A stretch of DNA of 20,000 bases from an uncultured virus (IMG/VR IMGVR_UViG_3300031841_004478) (IMGVR_UViG_3300031841_004478); one strand, 5' to 3'; shown: positions 1-15,748, counted from the stretch's first letter. A program made the numbers and translations. Notes: generated by a model from the letters alone, not told the origin.

Positions 1-3000
1 TGATATACACCAGTTCCAAATCCATCTTTCCACAATCTAAATAAAATACCATCTTCACCGACAGAGTGAGATGTAGATGAACCAACTGCTACAAAATTTC
101 TACCATGAGCATCCCATACCATGGATTTATTAATATCATCATTACCCATATGTCCAAGAGAATTTGCCCATTCAACGCTACCATCTGAATCATTAATAGC
201 AGCAAAGAAAGTATCTCTTCTCATTAAAATATCAGATGTATAATCTGGATGAGCAGCATTACTATCTAAATCCCATCCTTCTCCACCTACAATAAATCTT
301 ACTTGGCCATTATGGAAGAATTGATCTTCATTTTTCCACCAATCTCTTTTATCTGAATCTTCAACGACAACTGAAAGGAAACGATTTACATTACCGTATT
401 GAGATTGATATGTTTTTGACCAATATTTTGTAGTATTATGTACAGCAGCACCGCTTCCTGTAGTTTCGGTATATATTTGCCATTTTTCTGCTAAAGCAAA
501 TCCATATCCATTTGTTCCATTAGAATCGCCTGGAGTAAGATTCAAATCTTCTATTTGACCAACAACAATAATATCATATTTTTGACTATCGCTATAATAT
601 TTTAAAACATCAATATCATTAAATACATTTTCTTCATTATTATAGTTTGTAAGTGTATTATCTGAAATAGCAGCTGCAGTTGCATCTTCATTAACTAAAT
701 TTGTATTCCAATGAATAAGATCTGAAGTAAATACATTTCCATAACCCCACATCGGAGCTCTGTAATTACCACGCGTTTCAGATCCAACGAAGAAGAAATC
801 ACCAGTATCTTCTTTTCCTGGTTTTATTCGTTTAATATGTAAAGATGTATCATATGTTCCGCTATTTGCAATAGCTTCTGTTGATTTTGAAACAGTAACA
901 TTTCCATTTGGATCCATTAAGAAAATTAATCCAGAAGTTAAAGTATCTGAATCTCCAGTAAATGAATTATTTTCGATAAATCCTACTACATATTCTTGAC
1001 CTTGTCGAGTTACAATACAATGATCGGTTATTTTATGAACATTTGTTCCTTGAAATAATCCTTTTGTAAATTCTACAGTATGAGTTGCTAGATTTATTTT
1101 GTTAATAAATCCACTTCTTTTACCTGTTTGATTTTTTGTCCAACCAGATGTATAAGCATAGCCATTTCTAATATCAATTGAATTTATATTGGTAGAATCT
1201 GGTCCTACTGAATAATAATAATTTTCTTTATAATTATAATTTTTATCCCAAGCCTGTAAAATAGCTCTACCATTAATAGTATCATTACCTACAGTATAAA
1301 AATTACCAGAAATACTATCTCTTTGAACATCATATAAGTACATATCAGCAGAGTCATTTGATTGATGAATATTTCTACCCCAACCATGTACCCATTGATC
1401 GCCTTTAGGAGCAAGTTCTCCTTTTGAATAACCAGATAATACAAGTTTATTATTAATTTTATCTTCAATAATACCAGTAAGGAAGTTATCACCAGTTCCA
1501 CCCCAAGTATAGCTTACTGAATTATTTTCGTTATCAACAATAGTAAGTAATAAATCACCAGTATTTTCTGCACCAGTAGTTTGAGGATGTCCTTCAAGTC
1601 TACCAACAAGAGCTTTACGACCATCTTCAAGATAGATTCCTTGGAAATAATATTCTTCTGAATTGCCAGTATTAATTTCTTTTAGATTATAGAAGGTAGG
1701 AGAAGCTGTTTTCCATTGGAATATTGATGTTCCATTTGCAATTCCTTCTGGTTCTGTACCAGTATTATATTCAATAACTCCATCTGAATGAGTATAGCGT
1801 AAATAACCACCCTGAAGAGGTGATCTTGTTGTAAATGTTCCGGTAGTTGTATCATATGACATGTGATCGTAACCATCAAATGCACCACCAGCCAAGTCAA
1901 AACTATAAAGACCTTTACCCGAATAATTACCTGCTGCTCCATCTACACCAGAAAGAAGAGTAAAGAATTTAGTAGTTGCAGCGTTATATTTAAATCCATG
2001 TAATCTTAAAAATTGATCTGAATCATTTGTTACAATATTACCTTCAAGAGTTAAATCACCAACTGAATCGATTTGATTTGGCGCACTAAACATTTGCACA
2101 CCACCTTGTAATCCACTTGATGCTGCAACGTAAATATTACTGCCAACACTTGTAATATAACAATCCGGTTTATGATCTAAACCATGAAATTGAAATGGCA
2201 TATCAATTTGATTTAATGTACCTGGAGAAATTGTATTAGCATCTGTCAATTGCCAGATTTTTTGATCAAATGTGCCATCTCTTTCAGTAATAACTATTTG
2301 ACCATACATATTATTATGAAGTGAACAAATATAATATACTGTCTCTGCAGTTTGAGGAGTAAATGTAAGAGTAGAACTACCCGTTCCTCCGCCTGAAGCA
2401 CCTGCCACATTATGACTAGTTGGTGTTGGATTAATGCTAGTAGTATCACGTATATACATTGGGTGAGCAAGATATTGAGAGTTCTCAATTGTTAATGTAT
2501 CACCGACTTTGATGTATATTGTTGGTTGGTTTCTTTCAGCATGAGCACCTTGTCTATCATTTCCAGTTATCGCATAAACAACACCACCGCCGACGATATC
2601 TGTAACTTCATAATTGTAAGGACGAGCTTCAGCCTTCATTATAACAGGCATATATATTTTAGAACCAAATGCATGACCTGCACTTATTCTTAATGCATAA
2701 GAACTTTGAGTGCCTTCAGCGTTTTCATTGCCTCCTGGATATGGATTGAAATCAGGATCAGCTATGTCAAATGTACCATAATTTACTTCATTTGTAAAAG
2801 ATCCAGAAGTGGAAGTGTATGTTCTCGAAAATACATTCCAACCATTGGCTCCAGCATCGCTTAAATAAAATGCATGGAATCTATTAGAACCACCCTTTAA
2901 AATACCACCAGGCATATAGTTAATACCAGCGGTATTAGGTAAAGTCACGTCATTGTGAGAGTTGTGAGCACCACCAACAGAAGGAGTGTGAATACGAGCA

Positions 3001-3647
3001 AGAGGAACTGAATATGCACTTTGACCTTGTTTTGCAAGGATATTAATTAAGTAACCAAATTGTTTATCGGCTGGTCTAATATAACCGTCTGAAGCAAATA
3101 CGATTCGTCCATCATCATATTTTGAATAGTTTGAAGGAAGGTGTTTGTGGTATTGATAAAATTCCCAATTACCACCAGCATTTGCTTGATAAAGTCTATC
3201 CCAGTAAAACGCATCATCTTCTAATGAACCACCAGACGGAGTAGTTGCTCCAGTATTATCATCACCAAAGGTACCAATATGCGCAAACATAAAGGCATCA
3301 TTTTCAGTTTGGTTTGTAATATCGTTTAAACCAGGACCAATGTCTTGTATACATCCACCATGGTATCTTAAAACACCAGGCGCATGTGAATCATCAATAA
3401 ATGTAATTGTACCGTCTAATTCAACACGATTTGCATTAGTACTTAATTGACTCGCAGAACCAATTGATAATACTGTATCCCATTCATATACTTGAATAGA
3501 GTTTCCAGTAAGTACATTATTAGAATCCAAATCAGATGGATGATATGTATACCAATATCCTGCATCAGAAATATGGTGCATAACTGGTAAACCCAGAAAA
3601 TCTGAATCTACTAATGCGACTTCTCTTGTTAAATTAGCAATTGCCAT
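1..3647 (-). CDS. Large virion/structural protein, probable beta-propeller(s) with an embedded cupredoxin-like domain (3' end outside window)
   Basis: ATG at 3647, 3 nt after the upstream stop at 3651. Manual translation stays open to position 1 (>=1215 aa): MAIANLTREVALVDSDFLGLPVMHH...EDGILFRLWKDGFGTGVY. Blade-like beta repeats (YTWGGTGDNFLTGIIED; WANSLGHMGNDDINKSM..FVAVGSSTS). Cupredoxin motif AHPMYI...YYICSLHNNMYG at about 2283-2620. Absent from the ORF track, presumably because no stop lies in the window. Confidence 0.9.
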   Translation of the reverse strand, partial: MAIANLTREVALVDSDFLGLPVMHHISDAGYWYTYHPSDLDSNNVLTGNSIQVYEWDTVLSIGSASQLSTNANRVELDGTITFIDDSHAPGVLRYHGGCIQDIGPGLNDITNQTENDAFMFAHIGTFGDDNTGATTPSGGSLEDDAFYWDRLYQANAGGNWEFYQYHKHLPSNYSKYDDGRIVFASDGYIRPADKQFGYLINILAKQGQSAYSVPLARIHTPSVGGAHNSHNDVTLPNTAGINYMPGGILKGGSNRFHAFYLSDAGANGWNVFSRTYTSTSGSFTNEVNYGTFDIADPDFNPYPGGNENAEGTQSSYALRISAGHAFGSKIYMPVIMKAEARPYNYEVTDIVGGGVVYAITGNDRQGAHAERNQPTIYIKVGDTLTIENSQYLAHPMYIRDTTSINPTPTSHNVAGASGGGTGSSTLTFTPQTAETVYYICSLHNNMYGQIVITERDGTFDQKIWQLTDANTISPGTLNQIDMPFQFHGLDHKPDCYITSVGSNIYVAASSGLQGGVQMFSAPNQIDSVGDLTLEGNIVTNDSDQFLRLHGFKYNAATTKFFTLLSGVDGAAGNYSGKGLYSFDLAGGAFDGYDHMSYDTTTGTFTTRSPLQGGYLRYTHSDGVIEYNTGTEPEGIANGTSIFQWKTASPTFYNLKEINTGNSEEYYFQGIYLEDGRKALVGRLEGHPQTTGAENTGDLLLTIVDNENNSVSYTWGGTGDNFLTGIIEDKINNKLVLSGYSKGELAPKGDQWVHGWGRNIHQSNDSADMYLYDVQRDSISGNFYTVGNDTINGRAILQAWDKNYNYKENYYYSVGPDSTNINSIDIRNGYAYTSGWTKNQTGKRSGFINKINLATHTVEFTKGLFQGTNVHKITDHCIVTRQGQEYVVGFIENNSFTGDSDTLTSGLIFLMDPNGNVTVSKSTEAIANSGTYDTSLHIKRIKPGKEDTGDFFFVGSETRGNYRAPMWGYGNVFTSDLIHWNTNLVNEDATAAAISDNTLTNYNNEENVFNDIDVLKYYSDSQKYDIIVVGQIEDLNLTPGDSNGTNGYGFALAEKWQIYTETTGSGAAVHNTTKYWSKTYQSQYGNVNRFLSVVVEDSDKRDWWKNEDQFFHNGQVRFIVGGEGWDLDSNAAHPDYTSDILMRRDTFFAAINDSDGSVEWANSLGHMGNDDINKSMVWDAHGRNFVAVGSSTSHSVGEDGILFRLWKDGFGTGVY

Positions 3648-3650
3648 AAA

Positions 3651-4019
3651 TTATGTTCCTGAAATTGGTATTCCTGGTCTAAATACGATATCTGTAGTAT
3701 TTAAAGCAAATCCAATGAGCAATGCTCGAGTTGCGGTTGTAGGTGTTGGAGGTGTAGAAATTAGATCACCAGTTGTTCCTAAATAATATGGAGAACCAGG
3801 TGTTAAACCTGAAAATCCTGAAACAACTCCACTTGCATAATATTCACCACCAATTTTAATTAAGATAGCTAAAAGTTGTGATGAAGTATCGGTATTTGCC
3901 GCGTTAATTGCTGTATTTGAACCAGATATTCTAACTACTTTACCATTGTCACCGCCAGTAATATTAGGAACGGTAACGGCATTAGAAGATAGTGTACTGG
4001 TCGATTTAATAAATGCCAT
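3651..4019 (-). CDS. Small virion protein, capsid-cement/decoration (DUF2190-like) fold candidate
   Basis: 122 aa in the structural operon; motif GFSGLTPGSPYYLGTTG...PT...IGFA typical of phage fibre/cement modules. Fold assignment is from motif recall only. Confidence 0.6.
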   Translation of the reverse strand: MAFIKSTSTLSSNAVTVPNITGGDNGKVVRISGSNTAINAANTDTSSQLLAILIKIGGEYYASGVVSGFSGLTPGSPYYLGTTGDLISTPPTPTTATRALLIGFALNTTDIVFRPGIPISGT

Positions 4020-4022
4020 TTA

Positions 4023-4991
4023 TTATACTCCCTCTCTGACGAGTTCTAAATATGATGTATTTAATATAGCACCAGTGTTATCGCTATTTGAAATCATTAA
4101 TTCGACAAAATCATCTTCTAAAAAATAAAATATTTCATCTAGTTCAATAAAATCATTAGCACTCATATTAATAGTTGTTAAATTTGTAGTTGTAACTCCA
4201 CGAGTTCTTCTTAAGGATATTGTATAAGAATCTTCTGATCCAGCAGAAGAAGTACTAACAAAAGATCTAACTTTATAATATCCTGATGCTCTAATTGTAA
4301 GTCTTTCTGGTTCTGTATTATACCAATACAAATCGCCTAAAACATTAGCATTCGTATTAAAATCAACATTATTCCAAGTTGTTGCAAGAGGACTACTTGT
4401 AGTATTAGATGAAGCATTTAAAATTGCTCTTACTCCACTAAAAGCAACATGGTTACTTACACCTGTACCTGGTGTAAAACCAAGACGATATAATTGGAAT
4501 TCAGAATTTGCATTAATTGTTCCTGTTCCTGTACTTTCTTTACCATAAACTTCTAAATAATCCCCGGAATTTAATTCTATAGTTTGATCATAACTAGTAT
4601 TTTGATTAGGACCTAAAGTAGTTGTATCAATAGCTATTCCATTTTTTCTTAATTCAAATGTATAAGAAGCTCCAGCACCAGTTGATCCAGTAAAATATGA
4701 TACGGTTATTCTATAAAATCCAGTAGTAGGAGCAGTTAATCTACCTTGATTAGCATTTATATAATAATTATCGATATCAAATTCTAAATCTTGAAATTGA
4801 ATTAAAGAAAAATCTTGAGTTAAAGTATATACGTTTTGATTATATAATTTAGCTCCGCTAAAATTCTTACGTGTAGTAGATGTAATTACATTCCAGTATG
4901 GACCATCGCTATCATATTGCCATATTGCCTGATTAGGATCGGTGTAAAGATCTAAATGATTTGGTAAATTTGGAAAAATTAGTGTTGCCAT
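4023..4991 (-). CDS. Fibre/receptor-binding protein with two tandem C1q/TNF-like domains
   Basis: N-terminal FPxxP...W.YD...W attachment-type module, then two similar domains: NFSGAKL..IQFQDLEFD..GRLTAPTTGFYRI..IELNSGDYLEV and AFSGVRA..TWNNVDFN..RLTIRASGYYKV..FYFLEDDFVEL. These match the C1q pattern F.A....I.F....D....F.AP..G.Y....L..GD.V. Confidence 0.7.
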   Translation of the reverse strand: MATLIFPNLPNHLDLYTDPNQAIWQYDSDGPYWNVITSTTRKNFSGAKLYNQNVYTLTQDFSLIQFQDLEFDIDNYYINANQGRLTAPTTGFYRITVSYFTGSTGAGASYTFELRKNGIAIDTTTLGPNQNTSYDQTIELNSGDYLEVYGKESTGTGTINANSEFQLYRLGFTPGTGVSNHVAFSGVRAILNASSNTTSSPLATTWNNVDFNTNANVLGDLYWYNTEPERLTIRASGYYKVRSFVSTSSAGSEDSYTISLRRTRGVTTTNLTTINMSANDFIELDEIFYFLEDDFVELMISNSDNTGAILNTSYLELVREGV

Positions 4992-4994
4992 GTC

Positions 4995-6242
4995 TTAATA
5001 CTCATCAAATAGAAGATTAACTTGAAGTTCATTTATAATTCCCACTGGACTTGAAATTTCAACCCAAACATAATTGTTAGCTGGAATAGTTGAAGAAGAA
5101 ACTGTTAAAGTATCACCTGAGGTACTACTCGTAATAGTTCCAGTAGATGCTACTGTTCCAGTTCCAGATCTACTTGGAGCATAAACGACAGATATATTAA
5201 CTGATGTACCACCTCGAATAACTCCTCGAACTTCAGTTAATTCAAAAGATCTATCGGCATAAAATAATGTCTGTTCATCACCTGAACCTGGGCTTAAAAA
5301 CACTAATGATCTTGGAGAAATAGTTCCACGAGATCCTGTATAACCAGCAGATCCAGAATATCCTTGACCACCATCACTAATAGTGGGATCTGCAAATAAT
5401 ACCCAATGACCATAACCAGAAACGATAAAATACATATATGATTTGCCAGTTTTAGTGTCATACCAAATTTGACCACCAGCTGGATTTGCAGGAGCATTTT
5501 CAGAATATCCAATTGCTCCAGCTGATCCCGTATATCCACGTCCTTGTGGAGATGCATCAACCCATTGTCTACTTGCGGATCCATCTTGTGGAAGTACATT
5601 AATAGTACCAACCATAGGAGCATGAACACCACAAATATAATAGTAGGTTCCAGCTGAATTGAATTGATACGAAGTCGTACTTGTACCACCACCATAAGTA
5701 GATGGAGGATTTTCTACGTTGTATGATGAGTTATAATCATTCGTAATGGGATCAAGTTGAGTTACAAAGAAAAGTGGGTGATTATTAAATTCGCCATTAG
5801 TTATAGTAACTGTATCACCAGCAACAATATTAATAGTTGGATTTAAAGATGCTGGATCACCATTAGTATAATTTTTCATTCCATTACGATCAGACCAACC
5901 GGTATTGAATGAAAATACACTATTAGTTGTATATGTGCTATTTACAGTCATTGAAACTGTAATATTACCAGCTGCGGCTGGATCTCCATCATCATAATAA
6001 ACTTTTAAGCGACCATTTACTGCATCCCACCAAAGATTACCATCTCTTAAGGAATTACCAGATGGAGCAACTGAATCTGTCTCTGCACCACCACCTGAAA
6101 TATTAGCAATAGTATTACTTGTATTTTTATAATACAAAACACCATCAGCGTAGTTTAACGCCAATTCGCCGTAATCTAGATCAGCTGGTAATGGTTCCTT
6201 CCCCGTGACCGAGGAACGTTTAAGTTTAATCTCTGTTGCCAT
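4995..6242 (-). CDS. Tail-fibre-associated protein with Mtd_N-like N-terminus, inserted cupredoxin domain and short collagen-like G-X-Y runs
   Basis: N-terminus IKLKRS..GK.P...L.YGELALNYADG.LYY; two GxxWxD..G..xxY...W modules; GYTGSAG-type triplets; NHPL...YYYICGVHAPMVG. Confidence 0.75.
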   Translation of the reverse strand: MATEIKLKRSSVTGKEPLPADLDYGELALNYADGVLYYKNTSNTIANISGGGAETDSVAPSGNSLRDGNLWWDAVNGRLKVYYDDGDPAAAGNITVSMTVNSTYTTNSVFSFNTGWSDRNGMKNYTNGDPASLNPTINIVAGDTVTITNGEFNNHPLFFVTQLDPITNDYNSSYNVENPPSTYGGGTSTTSYQFNSAGTYYYICGVHAPMVGTINVLPQDGSASRQWVDASPQGRGYTGSAGAIGYSENAPANPAGGQIWYDTKTGKSYMYFIVSGYGHWVLFADPTISDGGQGYSGSAGYTGSRGTISPRSLVFLSPGSGDEQTLFYADRSFELTEVRGVIRGGTSVNISVVYAPSRSGTGTVASTGTITSSTSGDTLTVSSSTIPANNYVWVEISSPVGIINELQVNLLFDEY

Positions 6243-6298
6243 CTCGTAATCCTAATAAGGTAAGCTTTAATGAGTAAAAACTCAGCTCCACTTTCTTC

Positions 6299-6306
6299 TA
6301 TTTATA
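6299..6306 (-). promoter_or_regulatory. T4-type late promoter TATAAATA
   Basis: Perfect TATAAATA on the minus strand in the intergenic gap, 56 nt upstream of the ATG at 6242. Confidence 0.8.
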
Positions 6307-6310
6307 CAAG

Positions 6311-9300
6311 TTAATATGTTCCGCCATCAATTATAGCCTCAATATTTCCATCAACTTTAATACCACTTGATGTTCCAAGTATTCTTGCACCAGCACCGCT
6401 ATTTGTAATTGCAAGATTACCCATATATGGGTGGTTCAAACATTGATATCCAAATGAACGAGGTCCATCATCTTTTACTTTAATTTGTGCATATGAATTT
6501 CCAACATCAATATTACCAGCAGTGCCAACATATTTAATATCTGCTGCACTATCAGAAAGTAATCCAGATTTTTGATTATCCCAATAGAATCGAATATCGT
6601 GTGTTGACATTGAAGAATCATTATGATGGAATCTATATGTTACACCTGGAAGTAAATCAAGGAGCGGAGCTTGAATTTCTTTATCAGTATAAAGATGATC
6701 TGAATCATATGCGATGTAATAACCTTTTGCAGATCCTTGTTTCCAATATCTATGTTGACCAGTTTTAAATCCAGTTCTTACATAAATGTTAATTAATCCT
6801 TGATTATTTGAGTCTTGAGTAATACCAGCAGTGAGGTTTTGAGAATCTCTATTTTCATATGTTCTTTGAACTATATTATTCTTAATTCTATAATCACCGT
6901 TAGAATCATCAGTGACACTAATTAGATTTGTCTGTAATGAATCTGAAGTAAGACCACTTTCTACAACAACCGAGCCACTTAATCTTGAAATAGTAGCAGA
7001 ATCAGCTAAGATTTCTCCAAGAGAACCTTGGAATCCATTTCCACCTCTTATTTCAACCCCAGTACTAGTTGTTAATAATCTCTTTTTATCATTATGCCAT
7101 AGATTTACAATAGAAACCTCAGAAGTACCACCGGCAGTTATTACTCGCTCTAAGGCATCAGTAGTTTGAGCATATACGGCAAAATCCTGTCCATTGTCAT
7201 TAAGAGTAATTCTAAATCCACCTTGATCATTTTCAAGATTAAAATTATTTCCATCATGATAGAAATATGCGTTGCTATCGGCACCAAAATAAACTTTTTG
7301 GTTATCGCCCCAACCATTAATAATAGCTGGATATGATCCACCGTCTGCGGTACTAATGGTAGCAGTTGAAGTAGCAGAATCCCATGCAAATGCTGTTACA
7401 CCAGCAACCGAAGTTGTTCCAATACTATCTACAAAACCAGATGAATCTAGTGTAATTATTGGAACTTCTGAAGCTGAACCCCATATTCCATTATAACTTG
7501 TAGCACCTGATCTTGTAATTGTAGTAAAGTTTGCTGTACTACCAGATATATTTGTGATAACAGCCGAATCAGCAGTAAGCGTATCAATATCAACTAATGT
7601 TAAGTTAATATTATCTGCGTATAGACTATCGATATGTGCTTGACTTACATTTAATTGGCCGATATAAGCAGAATCAATATTTGCATTTGCTGATGTAAAG
7701 GTATCAATATCACCAGTTGTGACATTTAATTGCCCAACATAAGCAGAATCAAGTGAAGCATTAGCCGATGTAAGGGTATCAATATCACCAGTTGCAACAT
7801 TAAGTTGACCAATATATGCGCTATCTAATACAGCATCAGCTGAAGTCAATGTGTCTATATCAGCAGTTGTTACGTTCAATTGATCTACATAAAGTGAATC
7901 AGCATCAGCTTGACTTACGTTTAATTGTCCGATATAAGCAGAATCGAGTATAGCATTTGCCGATGTTAATGTGTCAATATCTCCTGTTGGTACATTTAAT
8001 TGAGTAATAAATGCAGAGTCAGAAGTAAATTGACTAATATCACCAGTAGCAACATTTAAATTATTTGTAGCAATCGAATCGAGAATATCACTATCAACAC
8101 GCGATTTTAAATAGTATTGATTAGTTGAACCTTCAAGTAATTGATCTGTAGTATGATTTGAAATATCAGTTACTGTACCAGTGACATTACCTGTAAGATC
8201 AGCATTTACTGTATCTGCGTATAATGTTCCAACTTGAAGCGGAGCATATTCTAATGAAGGATCAGCGAAATTAATATTTGCTTGTGGATCTGGTAAATAT
8301 TGTTGGAAAAGTTTCCATCTGAAATCCGATGGATCTCTTATGAATCCAGAATAAGCATGCGAATCTGCTGGTGGATTATAGTTACCAACAATACCAATTT
8401 GAACATCGATTGGTGAAGCTTCACCTGACCAACTATCTCCAAGATCGTGACCAGTTTCTGCTGTAAATGCAATTTTAATTCCATTTGCAAGATTTGCAAC
8501 CAAATCTCCTGATGAAAGTACAAAGCTTGTTGAACCTAATGCTGAATCAAATGGTTCTAATGATCCATATTGACTATCATAAGACCATTCAATCTTATCA
8601 CCTTCTCCACCAGATCCTACGCTATCAATGCGAACGTGGAATTCGACAACACCGTCACCAGTATAGTGTCCTGTAAGTGATGCATCATTAGTTCCAGTTC
8701 CACCAAAATTGGTAGCGGCAAGGCCAATAGTATCACCTGCACCCATTTCAATAACGGTGTCAGATACCGCTAAACTTTGAACCGAAGTTTGAACTTGAGA
8801 ACCAATAACTGTAAGGTTACCACCGATTGTAAAGTTAGCATCAACTCTACCAGAACCTGTTACACGAATTTGTTCGAAGAATTCTCTAAATGGTTTAATT
8901 TGAATACAACCACCAACTGCTGGTCCACCTTGAGAATCTTGTACAAGAACTGTACCAATTTCATATGCAAAGTTAGGATATTCAGGAGCAGTAGAAGTAA
9001 ATTTACCAGCGCTATCAGCCGATACAAATAATTTTGTACCAGGAGCATAAGCTGAAGTATCTAATCTTCCAAGTAAACCACGCTGTAATACAAGACCAAA
9101 AGTGTTATTATTAATACTATCTTTTAGAACACCAATTGTTTCATCAATAGTATTGATATCATTTGCTTGTGCTTTTTCAATTGTTGGGAAATCATTTGTT
9201 GCACCAGTTACATAAACTGGTGTTCCTTTTGGAATCATAGCACCAGAGTTATTATAAACTCTTACGACATCATCTTGACCAATTTTAATTGGAGAAGCAG

Positions 9301-11839
9301 TAGCTGGTTTATATACGAGGGCATCAGGTCCAGAGTTATAGTATACTGTACCTTCATCACTTGCAGGTTTAGTATTATCATCCCAAAGAATTGGATCAAA
9401 TCTTATAAAGTCTGCTGATACTGAATCAGCATTTAAAATATCTACACTTAAGTTTTCAATTCTTGCAGAATCAACAGTAGCAGCATCAATGTGAGCGTTT
9501 GAAACATCTAATTGTGTAGCATGTGCCGAATCAATAGTAACTTGACCTAATGTAACATTATCAATATCTGCTGTGACAACATTTAATTGATCAACATATA
9601 AGCTATCGGCATCAGCTTGACTTACATTCAATTGACCAATATAAGCGCTATCTAATATAGCATCAGCTGATGTAAGAGTATCAATATCTGCTGTAGCTAC
9701 ATTCAATTGAGTAGCATAAGCACTATCAATATCTAATTGAGAAATATGTGCTGAGTCAATATCACCTTGACTAACATTTAATTGATCAACATATAAGCTA
9801 TCCATATCAGCATTAGATAGATTCAATTGACCAACATTAATGCTATCTACAGTTAATTGACTAATAAACGCAGAGTCAGCAGTTAAATGTTTAAGAGTTA
9901 AATCTCCAGGTAAACCACTTGCAGTTTTAATAGAAAGCGAACCTGCACTATCTTGTAGTTTTACTTGGCCAAGATGAATAGTATTGCCAGAAAGATGTAG
10001 ATCTTTCCATTTATTAGTAGAAGTACCAAGATCATATGTCGAATCTGCCCAAGGTATAAGATCACCTTCAACATATGTTTCACTTCCAAGATGAATATAC
10101 ATTGTACTTGAAGCTTTTAATACACTATTTGTAGCTTCAATATAATTTGTACCATCACCTGTGTTGTGATAGATTTTTAAATCTTCACCTGCACCAAAAT
10201 TTAATTTAATGTCGTCTTGAATTAATACATTGCTGTTGAAGCTATCAATAACAGTATTAAATACTTGACCATCACCTGTACTAATTCTATAAGTATTTGT
10301 ACTTGAGATCCAACGTGTGCTATCTACTGAAGCAACTAAAACTTCTCCAATACTATCGATACGTCCATAGCTATCAACTGAAAATACTGGCATTTGTGTT
10401 GGTGAACCATATGTGCCAGCTGTTGAATCATTAATTGCTGTAAGATCAAAGAAGTTACTATCTGGATACCAATGTAAGTTATAATTGCTATTCATAGCAG
10501 CATCTAAGTCAGAGTCAAAGTTATCCTTTGAATAAACTTGGTCAACGTCAATTGAGAATTGACCTGATGCAGAATCATATAACAAGTCTCCATCAGTGCT
10601 AAAATAACCTCTAATAGTAGCAATAGATATATCATCCCCAAGTGCACTATCGAATCTTGTTCTTCTATAATATAAATTTGGTTCTGGTACACCTGGTCGT
10701 TGTGTAACAGTAAGAACACCATACATGTCTGTATGATTAGCACATTGATAATAATATGTACCAGGAACTGTTGGTGTCCAAGTTACTGTAGCAGTACCTT
10801 GTCCTGTAACTCCAGACGCTTGATCTCCAGTACCATCTCCTTGCACAGTTTTAATGTACATTGGATGATCACCAGATACAGTATTATTAAATGTAATTGT
10901 ATCATCTGTTCTTATTGTAAGAGCAGGATCTCCGCTATTAATTGAACCTGTTCTATCTGAACCTGAAACTTGATAGAAGAAATTGTTTATTGCTGAAAGA
11001 GTAAGTGTATAACTTTCAGTCGCAGGTTGAGGATCACCAGGACCTTCAACAAGATCATCAGTCGTAAATGGATTTAAATTGATATCTGTTTGAAATAATC
11101 CACCATCACTTGTATTAATGCTAAATGTACCAGAACCAAGTGAAGAATCATAACTAATTGAATCGAGTGAAGCAACAGCTACGTCTGAAATTGCTGTAAT
11201 TTGACCACGCGAATTTGTTGTAAGAACTGGAATACGAATAGAAGAACCAAATGTTCCAGAATCTGCACCTGTAGAATCAAGATCAGTTGTGATTGTAAGA
11301 ACTTGACCAATTTTTACACCGCGTGTGGACAGGCCTCGTCCACCAGCCAATGTAATAGTTTCACCATCATATATTTGAACAGAGTCAGTAAATCCATCAT
11401 CCATTGTAAAGGTAACTTCTTTTACCTTATCAACTTCTTGGTCTACATAGAATTTTGTTGTAAGAGAACTATCATCAAAAACAGTAAGCTGTCTTTGGTT
11501 AAATCTATCAGCTTCAACTCGGCCATCAAAGAAAGTACCGTTAATAGCATTAATATACAATTCATTTAATTTAGCTGGATCATTAAAATCTACAGTAATT
11601 GCATTACTATCGAAAGTAAGATAATCTACATTTAATTTACGAAGTACATTTAAATTGCGATATTCTGATGCAGCTGAGTCATATACTAAAAGATCATTGT
11701 GTTGACCTTCACCGATGTTTTGACCTGTGCCAGCATCACCTGATATATTAACACCACTTAGATTGTTAAGACTAAATGAACCAGATGTGACTCTTCGTAT
11801 TGGTGTACCAACAACGACTCTTCTTACAAAAGTTGCCAT
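6311..11839 (-). CDS. Long mosaic tail fibre protein (1842 aa)
   Basis: S/T/D/G-rich. Three GxxGS...PV...D..G.I modules, two TTD.L.EG..N.YY motifs, a DLIP.ADSTYDLG....W motif, two pentapeptide-repeat blocks, two cupredoxin-like domains and a C-terminal IDGGTY, all typical of T4-like phage fibres. Confidence 0.85.
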   Translation of the reverse strand: MATFVRRVVVGTPIRRVTSGSFSLNNLSGVNISGDAGTGQNIGEGQHNDLLVYDSAASEYRNLNVLRKLNVDYLTFDSNAITVDFNDPAKLNELYINAINGTFFDGRVEADRFNQRQLTVFDDSSLTTKFYVDQEVDKVKEVTFTMDDGFTDSVQIYDGETITLAGGRGLSTRGVKIGQVLTITTDLDSTGADSGTFGSSIRIPVLTTNSRGQITAISDVAVASLDSISYDSSLGSGTFSINTSDGGLFQTDINLNPFTTDDLVEGPGDPQPATESYTLTLSAINNFFYQVSGSDRTGSINSGDPALTIRTDDTITFNNTVSGDHPMYIKTVQGDGTGDQASGVTGQGTATVTWTPTVPGTYYYQCANHTDMYGVLTVTQRPGVPEPNLYYRRTRFDSALGDDISIATIRGYFSTDGDLLYDSASGQFSIDVDQVYSKDNFDSDLDAAMNSNYNLHWYPDSNFFDLTAINDSTAGTYGSPTQMPVFSVDSYGRIDSIGEVLVASVDSTRWISSTNTYRISTGDGQVFNTVIDSFNSNVLIQDDIKLNFGAGEDLKIYHNTGDGTNYIEATNSVLKASSTMYIHLGSETYVEGDLIPWADSTYDLGTSTNKWKDLHLSGNTIHLGQVKLQDSAGSLSIKTASGLPGDLTLKHLTADSAFISQLTVDSINVGQLNLSNADMDSLYVDQLNVSQGDIDSAHISQLDIDSAYATQLNVATADIDTLTSADAILDSAYIGQLNVSQADADSLYVDQLNVVTADIDNVTLGQVTIDSAHATQLDVSNAHIDAATVDSARIENLSVDILNADSVSADFIRFDPILWDDNTKPASDEGTVYYNSGPDALVYKPATASPIKIGQDDVVRVYNNSGAMIPKGTPVYVTGATNDFPTIEKAQANDINTIDETIGVLKDSINNNTFGLVLQRGLLGRLDTSAYAPGTKLFVSADSAGKFTSTAPEYPNFAYEIGTVLVQDSQGGPAVGGCIQIKPFREFFEQIRVTGSGRVDANFTIGGNLTVIGSQVQTSVQSLAVSDTVIEMGAGDTIGLAATNFGGTGTNDASLTGHYTGDGVVEFHVRIDSVGSGGEGDKIEWSYDSQYGSLEPFDSALGSTSFVLSSGDLVANLANGIKIAFTAETGHDLGDSWSGEASPIDVQIGIVGNYNPPADSHAYSGFIRDPSDFRWKLFQQYLPDPQANINFADPSLEYAPLQVGTLYADTVNADLTGNVTGTVTDISNHTTDQLLEGSTNQYYLKSRVDSDILDSIATNNLNVATGDISQFTSDSAFITQLNVPTGDIDTLTSANAILDSAYIGQLNVSQADADSLYVDQLNVTTADIDTLTSADAVLDSAYIGQLNVATGDIDTLTSANASLDSAYVGQLNVTTGDIDTFTSANANIDSAYIGQLNVSQAHIDSLYADNINLTLVDIDTLTADSAVITNISGSTANFTTITRSGATSYNGIWGSASEVPIITLDSSGFVDSIGTTSVAGVTAFAWDSATSTATISTADGGSYPAIINGWGDNQKVYFGADSNAYFYHDGNNFNLENDQGGFRITLNDNGQDFAVYAQTTDALERVITAGGTSEVSIVNLWHNDKKRLLTTSTGVEIRGGNGFQGSLGEILADSATISRLSGSVVVESGLTSDSLQTNLISVTDDSNGDYRIKNNIVQRTYENRDSQNLTAGITQDSNNQGLINIYVRTGFKTGQHRYWKQGSAKGYYIAYDSDHLYTDKEIQAPLLDLLPGVTYRFHHNDSSMSTHDIRFYWDNQKSGLLSDSAADIKYVGTAGNIDVGNSYAQIKVKDDGPRSFGYQCLNHPYMGNLAITNSGAGARILGTSSGIKVDGNIEAIIDGGTY
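7520..8059 (-). repeat. Pentapeptide repeat block B (36 pentads; 25-aa higher-order unit LNVxT-GDIDT-LTSAN-AxLDS-AYIGQ)
   Basis: Translation parses without indels as LNVAT/GDISQ/FTSDS/AFITQ/.../ANFTT; 15-nt and 75-nt periodicity in the DNA. Confidence 0.9.
9407..9901 (-). repeat. Pentapeptide repeat block A (33 pentads)
   Basis: Translation parses as LTLKH/LTADS/AFISQ/LTVDS/INVGQ/.../VSADF with hydrophobic or small residues at positions 1 and 3. Confidence 0.9.
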
Positions 11840-12204
11840 TATACGCCTCCTCCACCAGTACCAGTAACTTGTGGAGTTACTTGAATTCTACCTTCAAGAA
11901 GTCTTTCAATAATTGTATCGCCATTACTATCTTGGAAACTCAATTTCACATCATATACATATCTTCCTTTTTCTAGATTTGATGTTTGAGCATTAGTTAA
12001 AGATATTACAGCAACACCATCTGTTGATGGATTTGCAACAACGGAGTTAAATGATATTAAATTTGTGGTTGAATAATTTCTCTTTAATTCTGCTGAAACT
12101 TGATAGTTTGAAAGGTCTTTTGTATTACCATTCTCATCTACACAGTATATTTCAATGGCCACGTCTGTGCCTTGATCGATTGTAAATTCTTCGTATTGGG
12201 CCAT
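11839..12204 (-). CDS. Conserved virion protein of T4-like phages (BppU-N/fibre-attachment-like beta fold)
   Basis: Pattern I.QG.D....DL..Y......K.......F......G...ISLT..QT..L..GRYVYDV......RLLEG...V.P.VT; first gene after a late promoter; SD GAGG upstream. Confidence 0.7.
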   Translation of the reverse strand: MAQYEEFTIDQGTDVAIEIYCVDENGNTKDLSNYQVSAELKRNYSTTNLISFNSVVANPSTDGVAVISLTNAQTSNLEKGRYVYDVKLSFQDSNGDTIIERLLEGRIQVTPQVTGTGGGGV

Positions 12205-12253: not shown

Positions 12254-12261
12254 TATTTATA
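12254..12261 (-). promoter_or_regulatory. T4-type late promoter TATAAATA
   Basis: Perfect TATAAATA about 50 nt upstream of the ATG at 12204; an adjacent CTAAATA variant lies at 12244-12250. Confidence 0.8.
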
Positions 12262-12286: not shown

Positions 12287-13210
12287 ATGAAACGAGTTAT
12301 TTATAGTATTTTTATTCAAATCCCAAATGATGATTTAGATTGGCAACCACCATATCCAGGTGAAACTGAATCTAAAAATGATAAAGCTAATCGAGTGTTT
12401 TTACAAAACCATGATTGGCTTACAGCAATGCAAAAGACATACGCTGAAAGTATCGACGCAGAGTATATACAATACACTAGAGATGACAAATATTTAGAAT
12501 TTGAAAAATGGTATAAAGAAAATCATACTGACGTTACAGTTTGGAATATTGTAAATTTTTATAAAATTCATTTAATGTATGAATTGTCTCGAGAATTCGA
12601 CGAGGTTCTTTATCTAGATATTGATGTTGTTCCTATTACAAAGAAAAACTTTTTTGCTGAACACGATTTAAATGAAGGCATTGCTATTTTTCAAAATGAT
12701 CCAAAGGTAAATGCATCTCTTAAAAATATAAGAGATCAAGCAAAATGGAGAGAACAAGTAGATGAATCAGCACATAGTATTAGATCTCCTGCTGCTAAAT
12801 ACTGGAATGCAATTGCTTTATTATTAAATGAAGGAGAAGATCCTAAAAACTTTGTCTACAATACCGGGATTGTTGGATGCAATAAAAAATGGCTAGATAA
12901 GTTAGCATATTTTGAAGATCATGATTATTGGCTTGAAACAATGTCAGAATTAAAACATGAAGAAGATTCTATGTATCCTATGTGGATTCAAGAAATATTC
13001 GGGTGGGATAATGAAACTTTATGGAGTGTAAAAAATAAAATAAATAAAGTGCCAAATATATGGTTACGGCCTGATTGGCACCACTTTATGGATAATCATT
13101 GTTATGTGCCAAATGGTACTAATTTTATTCATGTTATTAATAAAGAATTTGATTGGGTAAAGGAATGGTGTGAGCAAAATAATATTCACCCAGTATCTTC
13201 CACTGAATAA
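12287..13210 (+). CDS. GT-A fold nucleotide-diphospho-sugar transferase
   Basis: K..L......DEVLYLDIDV (DxD), YNTGIV, DNET and W.HF...FIHVINK motifs. Confidence 0.75.
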   Translation: MKRVIYSIFIQIPNDDLDWQPPYPGETESKNDKANRVFLQNHDWLTAMQKTYAESIDAEYIQYTRDDKYLEFEKWYKENHTDVTVWNIVNFYKIHLMYELSREFDEVLYLDIDVVPITKKNFFAEHDLNEGIAIFQNDPKVNASLKNIRDQAKWREQVDESAHSIRSPAAKYWNAIALLLNEGEDPKNFVYNTGIVGCNKKWLDKLAYFEDHDYWLETMSELKHEEDSMYPMWIQEIFGWDNETLWSVKNKINKVPNIWLRPDWHHFMDNHCYVPNGTNFIHVINKEFDWVKEWCEQNNIHPVSSTE

Positions 13211-13850
13211 CCAGTTTGAAGAATACGCAGACTATATAGAAAATAAGCAAAGAAATTATGCACTAAAGTATGGAGCAACATATGCTCTTCATACGCCTGA
13301 TGATATAGACAATTATGATGACTTACAATTAAATAAAATATTGTTAGCAGAAAAATATGCTCAACAGTTTGATCAAGTATTATATATTGATTATGACGTC
13401 ATTCCAACTGATTATGCGCCTGACATTTTTAGAAAAGTAAATGGTCTAAGCTTATATCCAACATTTCCAAAAGTTGGTATGAAAGAATATGATAAGCTTT
13501 TAAATAAACAAATGATGTTAGCGTCTGAAGGTCGTAAATATAATAATATCATTTACAACACAGGTGTTTTCCATTGTGATAAAGCATCAATGGAAGAATT
13601 AAAGTTTAGTGAAAGATTCGATGAATGTAAAGAGCTATGTTCAGACTTTAATAACGAAGTTTACATCAGTTATATCATAGAACGATATGGTTGTAAACAC
13701 AATTTTTTACCAATGTGTTGGAATTATATCTTAGATGGATTTCAAGAAATGCCAAACGCTGCAGGATATTTTCATCACTATCATCATAAAAAATTTTGGT
13801 GCCTCCTCCCGGACTCGAACCGGGACGCTATTACTAGCGAGAGATTTTAA
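13170..13850 (+). CDS. GT-A fold nucleotide-diphospho-sugar transferase, paralogue of the upstream gene
   Basis: DQVLYIDYDV (DxD), YNTGVF, NNE and WNY...FHHYHHKKF. GTG start; 3' end overlaps tRNA-Leu antisense. Confidence 0.75.
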   Translation: MSKIIFTQYLPLNNQFEEYADYIENKQRNYALKYGATYALHTPDDIDNYDDLQLNKILLAEKYAQQFDQVLYIDYDVIPTDYAPDIFRKVNGLSLYPTFPKVGMKEYDKLLNKQMMLASEGRKYNNIIYNTGVFHCDKASMEELKFSERFDECKELCSDFNNEVYISYIIERYGCKHNFLPMCWNYILDGFQEMPNAAGYFHHYHHKKFWCLLPDSNRDAITSERF

Positions 13851-13882
13851 GTCTCTTGTGTCTACCATTCCACCAAGGAGGC
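13797..13882 (-). tRNA. trnL: tRNA-Leu(UAA)
   Basis: GCCTCCT/AGGAGGC acceptor stem, A73 and CCA; AGAGA-CTTAAAA-TCTCT anticodon arm; long variable arm CGCTA-GTAA-TAGCG; TTCGAGT T-loop. Confidence 0.97.
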
Positions 13883-13884
13883 AT

Positions 13885-13960
13885 TGGAGCGGGCAATCAG
13901 GTTCGAACTGACGACATTCAGATTGGAAATCTGACGCTCTACCAACTGAGCTATACCCGC
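13885..13960 (-). tRNA. trnG: tRNA-Gly(UCC)
   Basis: GCGGGTA/TGCCCGC acceptor stem, U73 and CCA; TCAGA-TTTCCAA-TCTGA anticodon arm; 76 nt. Confidence 0.97.
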
Positions 13961-13966
13961 ATAATT

Positions 13967-14152
13967 TGGCCCGCCCTAGAATCACCGCTATGCAGATCAT
14001 CTTTGATTTCATCCTGCACCGACGGGCAATGCAGGCATAGACTGTTACTCCACACATAGATTACCAACAGTCTAATCTCATCTATGTGACCTCAACATTT
14101 AGAGGATTTTCTGGGCGGGAGTGGAGGGTTCGAACCTTCTTAAACGCTCCCG
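13967..14152 (-). ncRNA. Candidate structured non-coding RNA in tRNA cluster (5' tRNA-minihelix, pseudoknot, terminal stem plus CCA)
   Basis: Fills the gap between tRNA-Pro and tRNA-Gly with 6-nt AT-rich spacers on each side. CCCGCCC (14113-14119) pairs with GGGCGGG (13970-13976), followed by CCA. Crossing 9-bp helices at 14080-88/14053-61 and 14066-74/14038-46; hairpins at 14090-14105 and 14013-14035; T-arm-like GAAGG-TTCGAAC-CCTCC. Confidence 0.7.
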
Positions 14153-14158
14153 TTATAT

Positions 14159-14235
14159 TGGTCTCGGTAGCTGGATTCGAACCAACGACCTCTAGTACCC
14201 AAAACTAGCGCACTACCAGGCTGTGCTATACCGAG
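14159..14235 (-). tRNA. trnP: tRNA-Pro(UGG)
   Basis: CTCGGTA/TACCGAG acceptor stem, A73 and CCA; CTAGT-TTTGGGT-ACTAG anticodon arm; 77 nt. Confidence 0.97.
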
Positions 14236-14343
14236 TTAACCTTGTCCTCTATATTTTTTAAAACTACGTTTTGTGGATTTATTCATTGACGAAAACTTTA
14301 CATTTCGTTTTCCGATAGAAGTTTTCTTATTACCTTTAGCCAT
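14236..14343 (-). CDS. Small very basic protein (35 aa) ending KKYRGQG
   Basis: MAKGNKKTSIGKRNVKFSSMNKSTKRSFKKYRGQG; SD GAGG upstream of the ATG; stop abuts the tRNA-Pro 5' end. The KKYRGQG ending is recalled from small conserved marine phage proteins. Not in the ORF track (short). Confidence 0.8.
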   Translation of the reverse strand: MAKGNKKTSIGKRNVKFSSMNKSTKRSFKKYRGQG

Positions 14344-14361
14344 AATTTTCCTCACTTTAAT

Positions 14362-14438
14362 TGGCGATTGCGGAAGGACTCGAACCCTCAACCTACAGAT
14401 TAGAAGTCTGTTGCTCTATCCAGTTGAGCTACGCAACC
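14362..14438 (-). tRNA. trnR: tRNA-Arg(UCU)
   Basis: GGTTGCG/CGCAATC acceptor stem, G73 and CCA; ACAGA-CTTCTAA-TCTGT anticodon arm; 77 nt. Confidence 0.97.
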
Positions 14439-15149: not shown

Positions 15150-15220
15150 CTTTTGATATATCTATCCTACTACAAGTAAAAAGTAATGTACATGCTTTTT
15201 TTCATTTTTTTTCGTTTTTT
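15150..15220 (-). promoter_or_regulatory. Sigma70-like early promoter, copy 1
   Basis: -35 TGTACA (15187-15192), 17-nt spacer, -10 TAGGAT (15164-15169), upstream A-tracts (UP element); motif repeated at 16578-16606. Confidence 0.75.
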
Positions 15221-15507
15221 TATAACGAATGACATTCTGCTGGATTTTCTGGCCATTCAACTAGAGTTCTAAAATCTTGATATCCACCAATATGTTTGCC
15301 TCGTTCATCATAAATTTGTGGTACAGTCTTAAATCCATGTTGTTTTAAAAATCTTAAAGCTGTTTCATTTCCATCTATTTTTATTTCTTCGTATTTAATT
15401 TCGTGCTTTTCCATTAAATCCATTGCTGCATCACAAAAGATACAACCTTTTTTGGAATAAACTCTATACGGCAAAACTTTCTCCACATCCACAAGAGGCA
15501 GTCGCAT
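15220..15507 (-). CDS. Glutaredoxin (NrdC/NrdH-like)
   Basis: VYSKKGCIFC (CxxC), TVPQI cis-Pro motif and HIGGY. True start may be a few codons downstream. Confidence 0.9.
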   Translation of the reverse strand: MRLPLVDVEKVLPYRVYSKKGCIFCDAAMDLMEKHEIKYEEIKIDGNETALRFLKQHGFKTVPQIYDERGKHIGGYQDFRTLVEWPENPAECHSL

Positions 15508-15748
15508 TAGGATTTATTACTTTTAAATACGAACCACCAAGTTCCTCTACATAATCCACAGTACATCCAAATACAAACATTTCTGCTAATGGATCTAGCC
15601 ATAGATTGGCGACAGTGGGTTCTTTATCAGTTGTTCCCCACTCATATTGAAAACCTGAACATCCTCCTCCTTTTACAGAAAGAGATACATTTGGTTTACC
15701 TACTTTTTTTAAATATTCTTTTGCTGAATCAGTTACTGTTAGCTGCAT
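15464..15748 (-). CDS. iscA: A-type Fe-S cluster carrier (IscA/HesB family)
   Basis: VKGGGCSGFQY and NPNATASCGCGESF with all three conserved Cys. Confidence 0.95.
   Translation of the reverse strand: MQLTVTDSAKEYLKKVGKPNVSLSVKGGGCSGFQYEWGTTDKEPTVANLWLDPLAEMFVFGCTVDYVEELGGSYLKVINPNATASCGCGESFAV

What the first reader, a model, noticed from the sequence alone, without database searches (positions are those of the whole stretch)
2283..11041. Four cupredoxin-like domains with complete type-1 copper ligand sets in three phage virion proteins
Seen: a His followed 45-55 aa later by YxCxxHxxM occurs four times. (a) ORF 1-3647: AHPM (H 2463), YYICSLHNNMYG (C 2325, H 2316, M 2307). (b) 415-aa protein: NHPL (H 5778), YYICGVHAPMVG (C 5631, H 5622, M 5613). 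(c) Fibre N-region: DHPM (H 10865), YYQCANHTDMYG (C 10742, H 10733, M 10724). (d) Fibre tip: THDI (H 6599), YQCLNHPYMG (C 6440, H 6431, M 6422). Copies a-c also share DRxG and P-T/A-I/L-x-I-xx-G/D-D-T-x-T-x-x-N. Known: His/Cys/His/Met with a CxxHxxM loop is the amicyanin-type blue copper site. Inference: the virion may display many Cu sites, a copper counterpart to the iron-in-tail-fibre idea. Possible roles are mimicking a ligand for a host Cu-uptake receptor, redox chemistry at the cell surface or stabilising the particle. The copies are very divergent yet keep all four ligands, which argues for selection on metal binding. I recall similar YYCxxHxxM motifs in cyanophage structural proteins but no functional characterisation.
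Basis: partly seen in the sequence, partly recalled or inferred. Interest (0 to 1): 0.9.

Follow-up and report, generated by a model that had tools for sequence, protein, structure and literature searches.

The report
Blue-copper domains on marine phage particles
Three probable particle proteins of a marine T4-like virus carry small blue-copper-type domains with all four copper-holding residues, part of a large, mobile and apparently undescribed family that may make many ocean viruses copper-decorated particles.

Summary
Observation confirmed. Four H…CxxHxxM sets lie at the stated places; 0 of 20,000 shuffles give two. Profile and AlphaFold searches place the domains among cupredoxins. Just beyond the window, ORF A holds a fifth, circularly permuted copy, with all four ligands in 22 of 22 orthologues. 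The domain is a mobile insert: orthologues of ORF A carry none, one or two copies. The ligands are lost together or not at all. The phage is a T4-like myovirus of unknown host, and the genes sit between baseplate and neck genes. Homologous carriers are in purified cyanophage virions. The family spans cyanophages, SAR11 and OM43 phages, giant-virus proteins and surface lipoproteins of marine Flavobacteria. My literature searches found no description of it. Type-1 copper binding is likely (~0.85) but unmeasured. The role is open. Best guess is an accessory, copper-loaded contact module (~0.4). Mimicry of a host copper-receptor ligand is unlikely as the general explanation (~0.1), because the hosts are so diverse.

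The parts
3..3647 (-). Protein A, aa 1-1215 of 1,762 (rest in L001). Multi-beta-propeller protein; the C-terminal propeller resembles CylK/SBBP. Carries domain a and, beyond the window, the permuted fifth domain (aa ~1418-1531, L001:13220-13561).
2274..2615 (-). Cupredoxin domain a (aa 345-458; H395, C441, H444, M447), a clean insertion; absent from 21 of 45 orthologues
1865..3647 (-). N-terminal region of protein A (surrounding domain a) with ten near-invariant His (96, 123, 167, 169, 220, 228, 231, 258, 550, 595); no family assigned
3651..4019 (-). 122-aa ORF in the same operon, no copper motif, function unassigned
4023..4991 (-). 322-aa ORF in the same operon, no copper motif, no family hit
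4995..6242 (-). Protein D, 415 aa; N-terminus like tail-fibre distal-subunit families
   Evidence: phrog_35830 E 4.7e-10, phrog_17885, phrog_1699
5577..5972 (-). Cupredoxin domain b (H155, C204, H207, M210); passes the Pfam Copper-bind cut-off (25.6 vs 21.2 bits)
6299..6306 (-). TATAAATA (T4 late-promoter consensus, recalled) in the gap before protein D
   Evidence: the window total of 4 is no more than chance (mean 4.13), only the position is suggestive
6311..11839 (-). Protein E, 1,842-aa fibre-like protein with DSxY(I/V)xQLNV repeats; C-terminal 282 aa modelled as a homotrimer; no HxH motif
6392..6796 (-). Cupredoxin domain d at the C-terminal end of the fibre (H1747, C1800, H1803, M1806); second subfamily; AlphaFold pLDDT 91.7
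10691..11020 (-). Cupredoxin domain c (aa 274-383; H325, C366, H369, M372)
11839..12204 (-). 121-aa protein heading the operon; hits phrog_1084 (unknown function, E 1.7e-20) and phrog_3304 (tail-fibre assembly, E 1.2e-17)
12254..12261 (-). TATAAATA (late-promoter-like) upstream of the operon

Best explanation
The five copies belong to a mobile, single-domain cupredoxin module that marine viruses graft onto outward-facing places of particle proteins (fibre end, gp9 C-terminus, propeller loops), much as phages use Ig-like domains. Each intact copy holds one type-1 copper ion through His, Cys, His and Met (fold and ligand set shown computationally; binding inferred, ~0.85). The apo-protein probably picks up copper at or after lysis, since particles assemble in a copper-poor cytoplasm (inferred). 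Most likely role (inferred, ~0.4): an accessory contact module. The copper-His patch, held away from the particle, makes weak, non-receptor-specific and possibly redox-dependent contact with cell surfaces and raises encounter or retention. It is not an essential receptor-binding part.
For: Fold: the family profile hits plastocyanin, amicyanin, pseudoazurin and NirK chains; 43 of 87 members hit Pfam Copper-bind at E<=0.01. The model of d (pLDDT 91.7) best matches the N-terminal region of Hyphomicrobium nitrite reductase 6tfd_A (Z 8.2, rmsd 2.9, 102 aligned), and most of the top 50 are cupredoxin-fold proteins. Ligands align with those of plastocyanin 1fa4. Selection on the site: 24 of 24 domain-a copies in orthologues recruited by a distant region keep HCHM at mean identity 49%. 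259 of 306 domains from the 150 best representatives are intact; 35 of 36 that lose Cys also lose the second His, while control columns do not co-vary. Rare Met-to-Gln and Met-to-Leu copies are the known axial substitutions (PMC4059628). A permuted copy keeps all four ligands in 22 of 22. Mobile and accessory: orthologues of A carry 0, 1 or 2 copies, or one at a third site; absent from S-PM2, HTVC008M and KVP40. Display: intact domains in S-SM1 gp9 and an S-SZBM1 baseplate protein, both reported in virion proteomes. Fibre-end trimer score 0.89 vs best control 0.00 (mark reached by 20 of 30 solved pairs and 1 of 23 single chains; runs agree in >=75% of contacts; pLDDT >=74). In marine Bacteroidota the domain caps long lipoproteins built of Ig-like, DUF285 and InlB-B repeats.
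Against: No metal measurement exists, and model coordinates were not returned, so ligand distances were not measured. Foldseek against PDB gave no match at E<=0.001, and its top row was a non-copper peptidase; the VIA Z of 8.2 is only just above the level the tool calls common. Nothing here shows binding to any surface or any effect on adsorption. Met is kept in 19 of 36 Cys-less copies, so part of its conservation is structural. Ligand-less copies persist in 24 of 147 proteins, so a metal-free role exists for some. The three window proteins were not shown in particles, and the host is unknown.
Confidence: 0.4

Rival explanations
1. Protective redox sink: particle-bound type-1 Cu exchanges single electrons with superoxide or other reactive species in sunlit seawater, or mops up toxic free Cu, prolonging infectivity independently of the host.
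For: Type-1 sites are mainly electron-transfer sites (PMC4059628 passages). Shared by viruses of unrelated hosts and by surface proteins of marine Bacteroidota, which points to an environmental rather than a host factor. Isolate matches are almost all marine cyanophage, SAR11 and OM43 phage records; none is from an enterobacterial phage by the organism tallies.
Against: A virion cannot regenerate the site. Copies sit on tail-associated proteins rather than over the capsid where the DNA is. No dedicated redox partner was identified next to the domain genes in the loci examined (only part of the neighbours were scanned).
Confidence: 0.2
2. Structural role: copper, or another metal, clamps a small beta-sandwich used as spacer or stabiliser in fibres and propellers; redox is incidental.
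For: Ligand-less copies are retained, and 23 of the 24 proteins that have them also have an intact copy. Copper centres give mechanical signatures on forced unfolding of azurin and plastocyanin (PMC4532836, abstract only).
Against: The domain is an optional loop insert in proteins that exist without it, so it stabilises nothing essential. It also occurs as stand-alone secreted 124-131-aa proteins in Bacteroidota.
Confidence: 0.15
3. Copper Trojan horse: the holo-domain mimics the cargo of a host copper-uptake receptor and serves as receptor-binding protein.
For: Precedent: secreted azurin binds the TonB-dependent Cu transporter OprC (PMC6907878, abstract). Copy d lies at the end of a predicted trimeric fibre, and its four ligands are not among the listed interface residues. 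Parallel to the iron hypothesis (PMC11705849 passages).
Against: The same module is on phages of Synechococcus, Prochlorococcus, Pelagibacter and OM43 and in giant-virus proteins, which are unlikely to share a receptor (inference). Most copies are not at fibre tips. Related phages lack it.
Confidence: 0.1
4. The site holds Zn or no metal in nature; the ligands are conserved for another reason.
For: Virions assemble in the cytoplasm; cupredoxins made there are often Zn-loaded and seawater free Cu is very low (both recalled). No direct measurement.
Against: Met, Gln and Leu at the axial position and the CxxHxxM loop (308 of 346 loops) follow type-1 Cu rules; Met is a poor Zn ligand (recalled).
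Confidence: 0.1

Closest known systems
Single-domain type-1 cupredoxins (amicyanin, plastocyanin, pseudoazurin; Pfam PF00127)
   Same: Beta-sandwich fold and His…Cys-His-Met ligand set in register; short CxxHxxM loop; Cys-His gaps of two to four residues are usual in blue cupredoxins (PMC4059628).
   Different: Scores 20-28 bits against NCBIfam cut-offs of 88-110. His-Pro after the first ligand in 248 of 275 intact domains, where pseudoazurin and plastocyanin have His-Asn. Embedded in large proteins with no signal peptide. One natural circular permutation.
Cyanophage PetE (auxiliary plastocyanin gene)
   Same: A phage-encoded blue-copper protein (PMC3037559 passages).
   Different: PetE is a stand-alone host-metabolism protein. 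S-SM1 PetE scores only 12.9 bits against the family profile, versus 80 for the S-SM1 gp9 domain.
Iron-binding HxH tail fibres (T4 gp37; Ferrojan-horse hypothesis)
   Same: Metal sites on phage fibres, proposed as ligands in seawater (PMC11705849 passages).
   Different: Those are Fe sites built from HxH pairs along the fibre. These are intrachain, redox-type Cu sites in a movable domain; protein E has no HxH.
Ig-like decoration domains of phages (recalled)
   Same: Promiscuous, patchy insertion in structural proteins, alongside LamG, F5/8, subtilase, YHYH and YadA domains.
   Different: Cupredoxin fold with a conserved metal site; so far seen almost only in aquatic viruses.
Pfam PF25489 At5g54830-like domain and Bacteroidota surface proteins
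   Same: Some members of the family hit PF25489, including a T9SS-tailed protein with intact HCHM copies. Flavobacterial lipoproteins carry domains up to 53% identical to copy c.
   Different: Cellular and secreted; no function was found in the papers searched. No window protein hits PF25489.

Membership tests
Cupredoxin superfamily | Greek-key beta-sandwich fold | tested here: met
   Model of d pLDDT 91.7; best structural match 6tfd_A Z 8.2, rmsd 2.9, 102 aligned, top 50 mostly cupredoxin-fold; profile hits to 76 PDB sequences, the 60 shown all cupredoxin-fold proteins. Foldseek alone gave no E<=0.001.
Type-1 (blue) copper site | His, Cys, His plus axial Met (or Gln/Leu) at homologous positions | tested here: met
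   definition from PMC4059628 passages
Type-1 (blue) copper site | The four ligands converge in space | tested here: inconclusive
   Implied by fold match and aligned ligands; coordinates were not returned, so distances were not measured
Type-1 (blue) copper site | Cu binding, ~600 nm band, small hyperfine EPR, electron transfer | not testable with these tools
   needs purified protein
Pfam PF00127 Copper-bind | Score above gathering cut-off 21.2 | tested here: inconclusive
   Met for protein D/domain b (25.6 bits). Domains a and c hit at E<=0.01 when scanned alone; d does not hit.
Amicyanin (TIGR02657), plastocyanin (TIGR02656), pseudoazurin (TIGR02375) | Score above equivalog cut-off; stand-alone exported protein | tested here: not met
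   Best 28 bits vs 110.2, 25.9 vs 87.85, 20.4 vs 109.85; embedded in large proteins
Virion structural protein | Encoded in the structural late module | tested here: met
   In relative G002 the genes lie between baseplate genes and neck, terminase and sheath genes; tail-fibre PHROG hits for D and E
Virion structural protein | Detected in purified particles | not testable with these tools
   Shown only for other carriers of the domain: S-SM1 gp9, 25 peptides (PMC3037559 Suppl. Table 8); S-SZBM1 498-aa baseplate protein, 9 peptides, matched by name and length (PMC9146016)
Circularly permuted cupredoxin (fifth copy) | Complementary halves in swapped order that fold as one domain | tested here: inconclusive
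   Halves match positions 61-104 and 1-59 of canonical domains; modelled at pLDDT 86-96 as strands. Fold searches of that 433-aa model returned only propellers, so the fold of the insert was not tested separately.

The most novel reading that the evidence does not exclude
A large share of marine viruses are copper metalloparticles. They display tens of redox-active type-1 Cu centres whose oxidation state, set by electrons or superoxide at a living cell's surface, gates attachment or tail triggering, so that the virion senses host activity. In protein A the inserted cupredoxins may also feed electrons to an unrecognised His-rich metal centre in the propeller, making a virion-borne copper enzyme. 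The fifth copy would be a natural circularly permuted blue-copper protein.
Probability: 0.12. Interest if true: 0.95.

Novelty: new variant of a known kind. Interest (0 to 1): 0.74.

Why it matters
The metal chemistry proposed so far for phage fibres, in the papers I read, is iron on HxH motifs. A redox-type copper site as a recurrent, mobile part of virion proteins would be a new kind of particle decoration. It is common: 207 isolate records match copy c, and 6,147 clusters at 50% identity score E<=1e-10 (this count includes cellular proteins). It is directly testable, because blue copper has a colour and an EPR signature and cultured phages carry it (S-SM1, P-SSM2, S-TIM5, S-SZBM1, Melnitz). 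This gives the 'metals on virions' question a clean experimental handle. It would not matter for the ocean copper budget: about 1-2 pM even if 1e10 virions per litre each held 66-100 ions (assumed numbers), against roughly nM dissolved Cu (recalled). Automated 'plastocyanin' labels on such proteins (JGI names) may also inflate counts of photosynthetic auxiliary genes.

Tried and rejected
Chance motif: rejected. PetE-type auxiliary plastocyanin: rejected. One in-genome expansion of all four copies: not supported; in a quick tree (146 rows, 113 columns, careful search and clade test unfinished) d is separated from a-c by a branch with 99% SH-aLRT. A link to light-dependent adsorption (recalled for S-PM2): S-PM2 has no match, so the domain is not needed for it. 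Foldseek PDB search of d: no match at E<=0.001. Fold searches of the permuted-domain model returned only propellers. Profile-profile d versus a-c type was weak (probability 25%, E 8e-4) but aligned the ligands. Assigning the His-rich N-terminal region of A failed in Pfam, NCBIfam, PDB and the ESM Atlas; a homologue search found 10 unnamed relatives without Pfam domains. Host: not identified. The closest isolate to relative G002 is Phage C48C1 (TerL 70.7%), which has no host in its record and no paper found; no photosynthesis gene among 85 of 99 ORFs of G002 scanned. Sigma-70 scan uninformative. Literature: ten searches and term look-ups in PMC9004378, PMC12801897, PMC12906663, PMC3037559, PMC7029224, PMC5628999 and PMC9146016 found no description of cupredoxin domains in virion proteins or of a natural permuted cupredoxin. 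The library lacks most subscription papers, and of all supplements only one file of PMC3037559 was read, so unseen supplements may bear on this.

Full report
OBSERVATION. The four motifs are in the sequence as described. His-to-Cys spacings are 46, 49, 41 and 53. They are the only 4 six-frame matches of CxxH-x(2,4)-M in the window and use 4 of the 8 cysteines in 3,472 residues; 0 of 20,000 shuffles produced two or more. Copies a-c are 29-35% identical to each other, and d is 13-18% identical to them.

CONTEXT. No own genome is held. Record L001 overlaps the window (12,613 of 12,615 bases identical) and completes ORF A to 1,762 aa. In a close relative (handle G002, 104,858 bases, 62% complete), orthologues of the same genes lie between T4-like baseplate genes and the neck, terminase and sheath genes (85 of 99 ORFs scanned, no photosynthesis gene among them). 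The closest isolate by terminase is Phage C48C1 (70.7%; filed under Kyanoviridae, no host given). Proteins D and E hit tail-fibre PHROGs. TATAAATA (T4 late consensus, recalled) stands in the gaps before the operon and before D, although 4 matches in the window is the chance level. The last 282 aa of E model as a homotrimer: score 0.89, best control 0.00; the mark was reached by 20 of 30 solved pairs and 1 of 23 single chains; runs agree in at least 75% of contacts; pLDDT at least 74; the job is unlike the calibration. The four ligands of d are not among the listed interface residues, which fits outward-facing intrachain sites but does not prove it.

FOLD. Domain b passes the Pfam Copper-bind cut-off, and its ligands align with those of plastocyanin 1fa4. 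A profile of 87 domains (A2) matches 76 PDB sequences; the 60 shown are plastocyanins, amicyanins, pseudoazurin, rusticyanin, auracyanin, nitrite reductases and oxidase subunit II. 43 of 87 members hit PF00127; d does not. The AlphaFold model of d (pLDDT 91.7) best matches 6tfd_A residues 29-137 (Z 8.2, rmsd 2.9, 102 aligned), with cupredoxin-fold proteins filling most of the top 50. Against this, Z 8 is near the level the tool calls common, and Foldseek found nothing at E<=0.001, ranking a non-copper peptidase first. Coordinates were not returned, so ligand distances are unmeasured. The domains are not amicyanins, plastocyanins or pseudoazurins by family score. 248 of 275 intact domains have Pro after the first His, and 308 of 346 loops are CxxHxxM.

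SELECTION ON THE SITE. Of 146 non-redundant domains from my loci and first protein search, 134 have H/C/H/M, 2 have Gln for Met, 4 are mis-aligned halves of the permuted copy and 6 have lost Cys and the second His together (73 partial domains and 73 near-duplicates dropped from 248... precisely, 219 of 248 spanned all ligand columns and 146 remained at 80% identity). Many of those loci were recruited with a pattern containing Cys and His, so this count is biased. Two cleaner tests follow. First, among 45 orthologues of A recruited by aa 1300-1762, all 24 that have domain a keep HCHM at a mean identity of 49%. Second, in the 150 best of 1.84 billion representatives, 306 of 385 domain hits span all ligand columns; 259 are intact, and 35 of 36 that lose Cys also lose the second His, whereas a conserved Tyr and Gly do not co-vary with Cys (sequences are related, so the p-values overstate). 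Gln and Leu are recognised axial substitutions (PMC4059628, passages). Met survives in 19 of 36 Cys-less copies, so it is partly structural. 23 of the 24 proteins with Cys-less copies also hold an intact copy, though ranking by score favours such proteins.

A FIFTH, PERMUTED COPY, AND MOBILITY. Beyond the window end, A carries the C-terminal half of the domain (YYYQCxxHxxM, C1448) before the N-terminal half (GHPF, H1519). The halves match positions 61-104 (60-65% identity) and 1-59 (46-52%) of canonical domains, and all four ligands are kept in 22 of 22 orthologues (these were recruited with a region that includes this copy). In a 433-aa model the insert is predicted at pLDDT 86-96 within a CylK-like propeller; its fold was not tested alone. 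Of the 45 orthologues, 22 have both copies, 2 only copy a, and 21 neither; 3 of the 21 carry a copy at a third site. The gaps are clean. The domain is therefore an optional, repeatedly inserted module. A quick tree separates d from a-c (99% SH-aLRT; careful search and clade test unfinished), suggesting at least two acquisitions.

DISTRIBUTION. Copy c matches 207 of 50,697 phage records: 164 Synechococcus, 21 Prochlorococcus, 18 Cyanophage, 3 Marine virus, 1 Actinomycetia. Copy d matches 20, including tail-fibre proteins of P-SSM2, Pelagibacter phage Mosig and OM43 phage Melnitz and an S-TIM5 'virion structural protein'. No enterobacterial phage appears in these tallies, though 740 Escherichia records match the terminase. 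Of 5 named genomes tested, S-SM1 has 3 matches, C48C1 1, and S-PM2, HTVC008M and KVP40 none. Structural matches include Marseillevirus and Pithovirus metagenome proteins (ligands there not checked). The profile finds 12,325 clusters at E<=0.001 and 6,147 at E<=1e-10; these include cellular proteins such as tandem classical cupredoxins. In GTDB genomes, 65 of 75 loci carry Bacteroidota titles, mostly marine Flavobacteriaceae (recruited with a pattern that contains the Cys). There the domain usually ends long lipoproteins made of Ig-like, DUF285 and InlB-B repeats, or stands alone as a 124-131-aa secreted protein.

VIRION EVIDENCE. S-SM1 gp9 ends in an intact domain and was detected with 25 peptides in purified virions (PMC3037559: section 26 and Suppl. 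Table 8 read; column heads were lost in the text, and I assign the first column to S-SM1 from the text and the presence pattern). An S-SZBM1 baseplate protein ends in an intact domain and matches by name and length (498 aa) a protein listed with 9 peptides in that phage's proteome (PMC9146016, passages and table rows). The three window proteins themselves have no such data.

MECHANISM. Shown: fold, ligand set, concerted conservation, mobility, structural-module context. Inferred: one type-1 Cu per intact copy (~0.85), loaded at or after lysis; display on the particle (~0.85). For the role I commit to an accessory, copper-loaded contact module (0.4): it is placed like an adhesion domain on both phages and bacteria, it is patchy among relatives, and it is shared across unrelated hosts. 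Rivals are a protective redox or Cu sink (0.2), structural clamping (0.15; PMC4532836, abstract only), receptor mimicry (0.1; azurin-OprC precedent, PMC6907878, abstract only; iron parallel, PMC11705849, passages) and a non-Cu metal (0.1). None is tested here. Protein A also has ten near-invariant His outside its cupredoxins, conserved in orthologues that lack them and unassigned by any library. They may form a second metal site or a His-type catalytic centre.

NOVELTY. Cupredoxins are well known, and pipelines already label some of these proteins 'plastocyanin'. Ten full-text searches (listings seen) and term look-ups in seven papers found no description of such domains on virion proteins or of a natural permuted form. 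Subscription papers and most supplements were not visible. Verdict: new variant of a known kind, widespread and directly testable; interest 0.74.

Noticed in passing
L001:13220-13561 (beyond the window's left end, protein A aa ~1418-1531): Fifth cupredoxin copy, circularly permuted, inserted in a propeller; all four ligands kept in 22 of 22 orthologues.
   Followed up: yes
window 1865-3647 (-), protein A aa 1-595: Ten near-invariant His (with invariant Tyr, Trp, Asp) across 45 orthologues, including those without cupredoxin inserts; no family hit. Possible metal centre or His-type lyase propeller.
   Followed up: partly
L118-L182 (GTDB genomes): The same domain caps large Ig/DUF285/InlB-B lipoproteins of marine Flavobacteriaceae, several per genome, or occurs as small secreted proteins; no description found in my searches.
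   Followed up: partly
L024:4519-4917 and L035:37-432: Phage copies with Gln as axial ligand (stellacyanin-like).
   Followed up: no
P0120, P0121, P0144, P0200; L056: Proteins with tandem arrays of up to 9-14 profile matches, mixing intact and ligand-less copies; co-domains include subtilase S8, YHYH, LamG, F5/8.
   Followed up: partly
BFVD hits: Marseillevirus and Pithovirus metagenome 'beta-sandwich proteins' match the fold of copy d (E 3e-8 to 7e-4); ligands not checked.
   Followed up: no
window 12287-13850 (+): Two ORFs on the opposite strand next to the fibre operon; the 226-aa one hits Glyco_transf_8 weakly (E 3e-4). Possibly virion or host glycosylation.
   Followed up: no
window 13797-14438 (-): Four tRNA genes: Leu(TAA), Gly(TCC), Pro(TGG), Arg(TCT).
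   Followed up: no
window 15220-15748 (-) and 18707-19354 (-): Glutaredoxin and an Fe-S biosynthesis (HesB/IscA-type) gene side by side, and a Glyco_transf_25 gene further on.
   Followed up: no
window 7600-9800 (-), protein E aa ~680-760 and ~1300-1400: Two blocks of DSxY(I/V)xQLNV repeats, probably fibre shaft.
   Followed up: no
L110:4739-15954 (G002): Opposite-strand cluster with a Nol-like carbamoyltransferase, several radical-SAM proteins, an aminotransferase and a glycosyltransferase inside the structural region of the relative.
   Followed up: no
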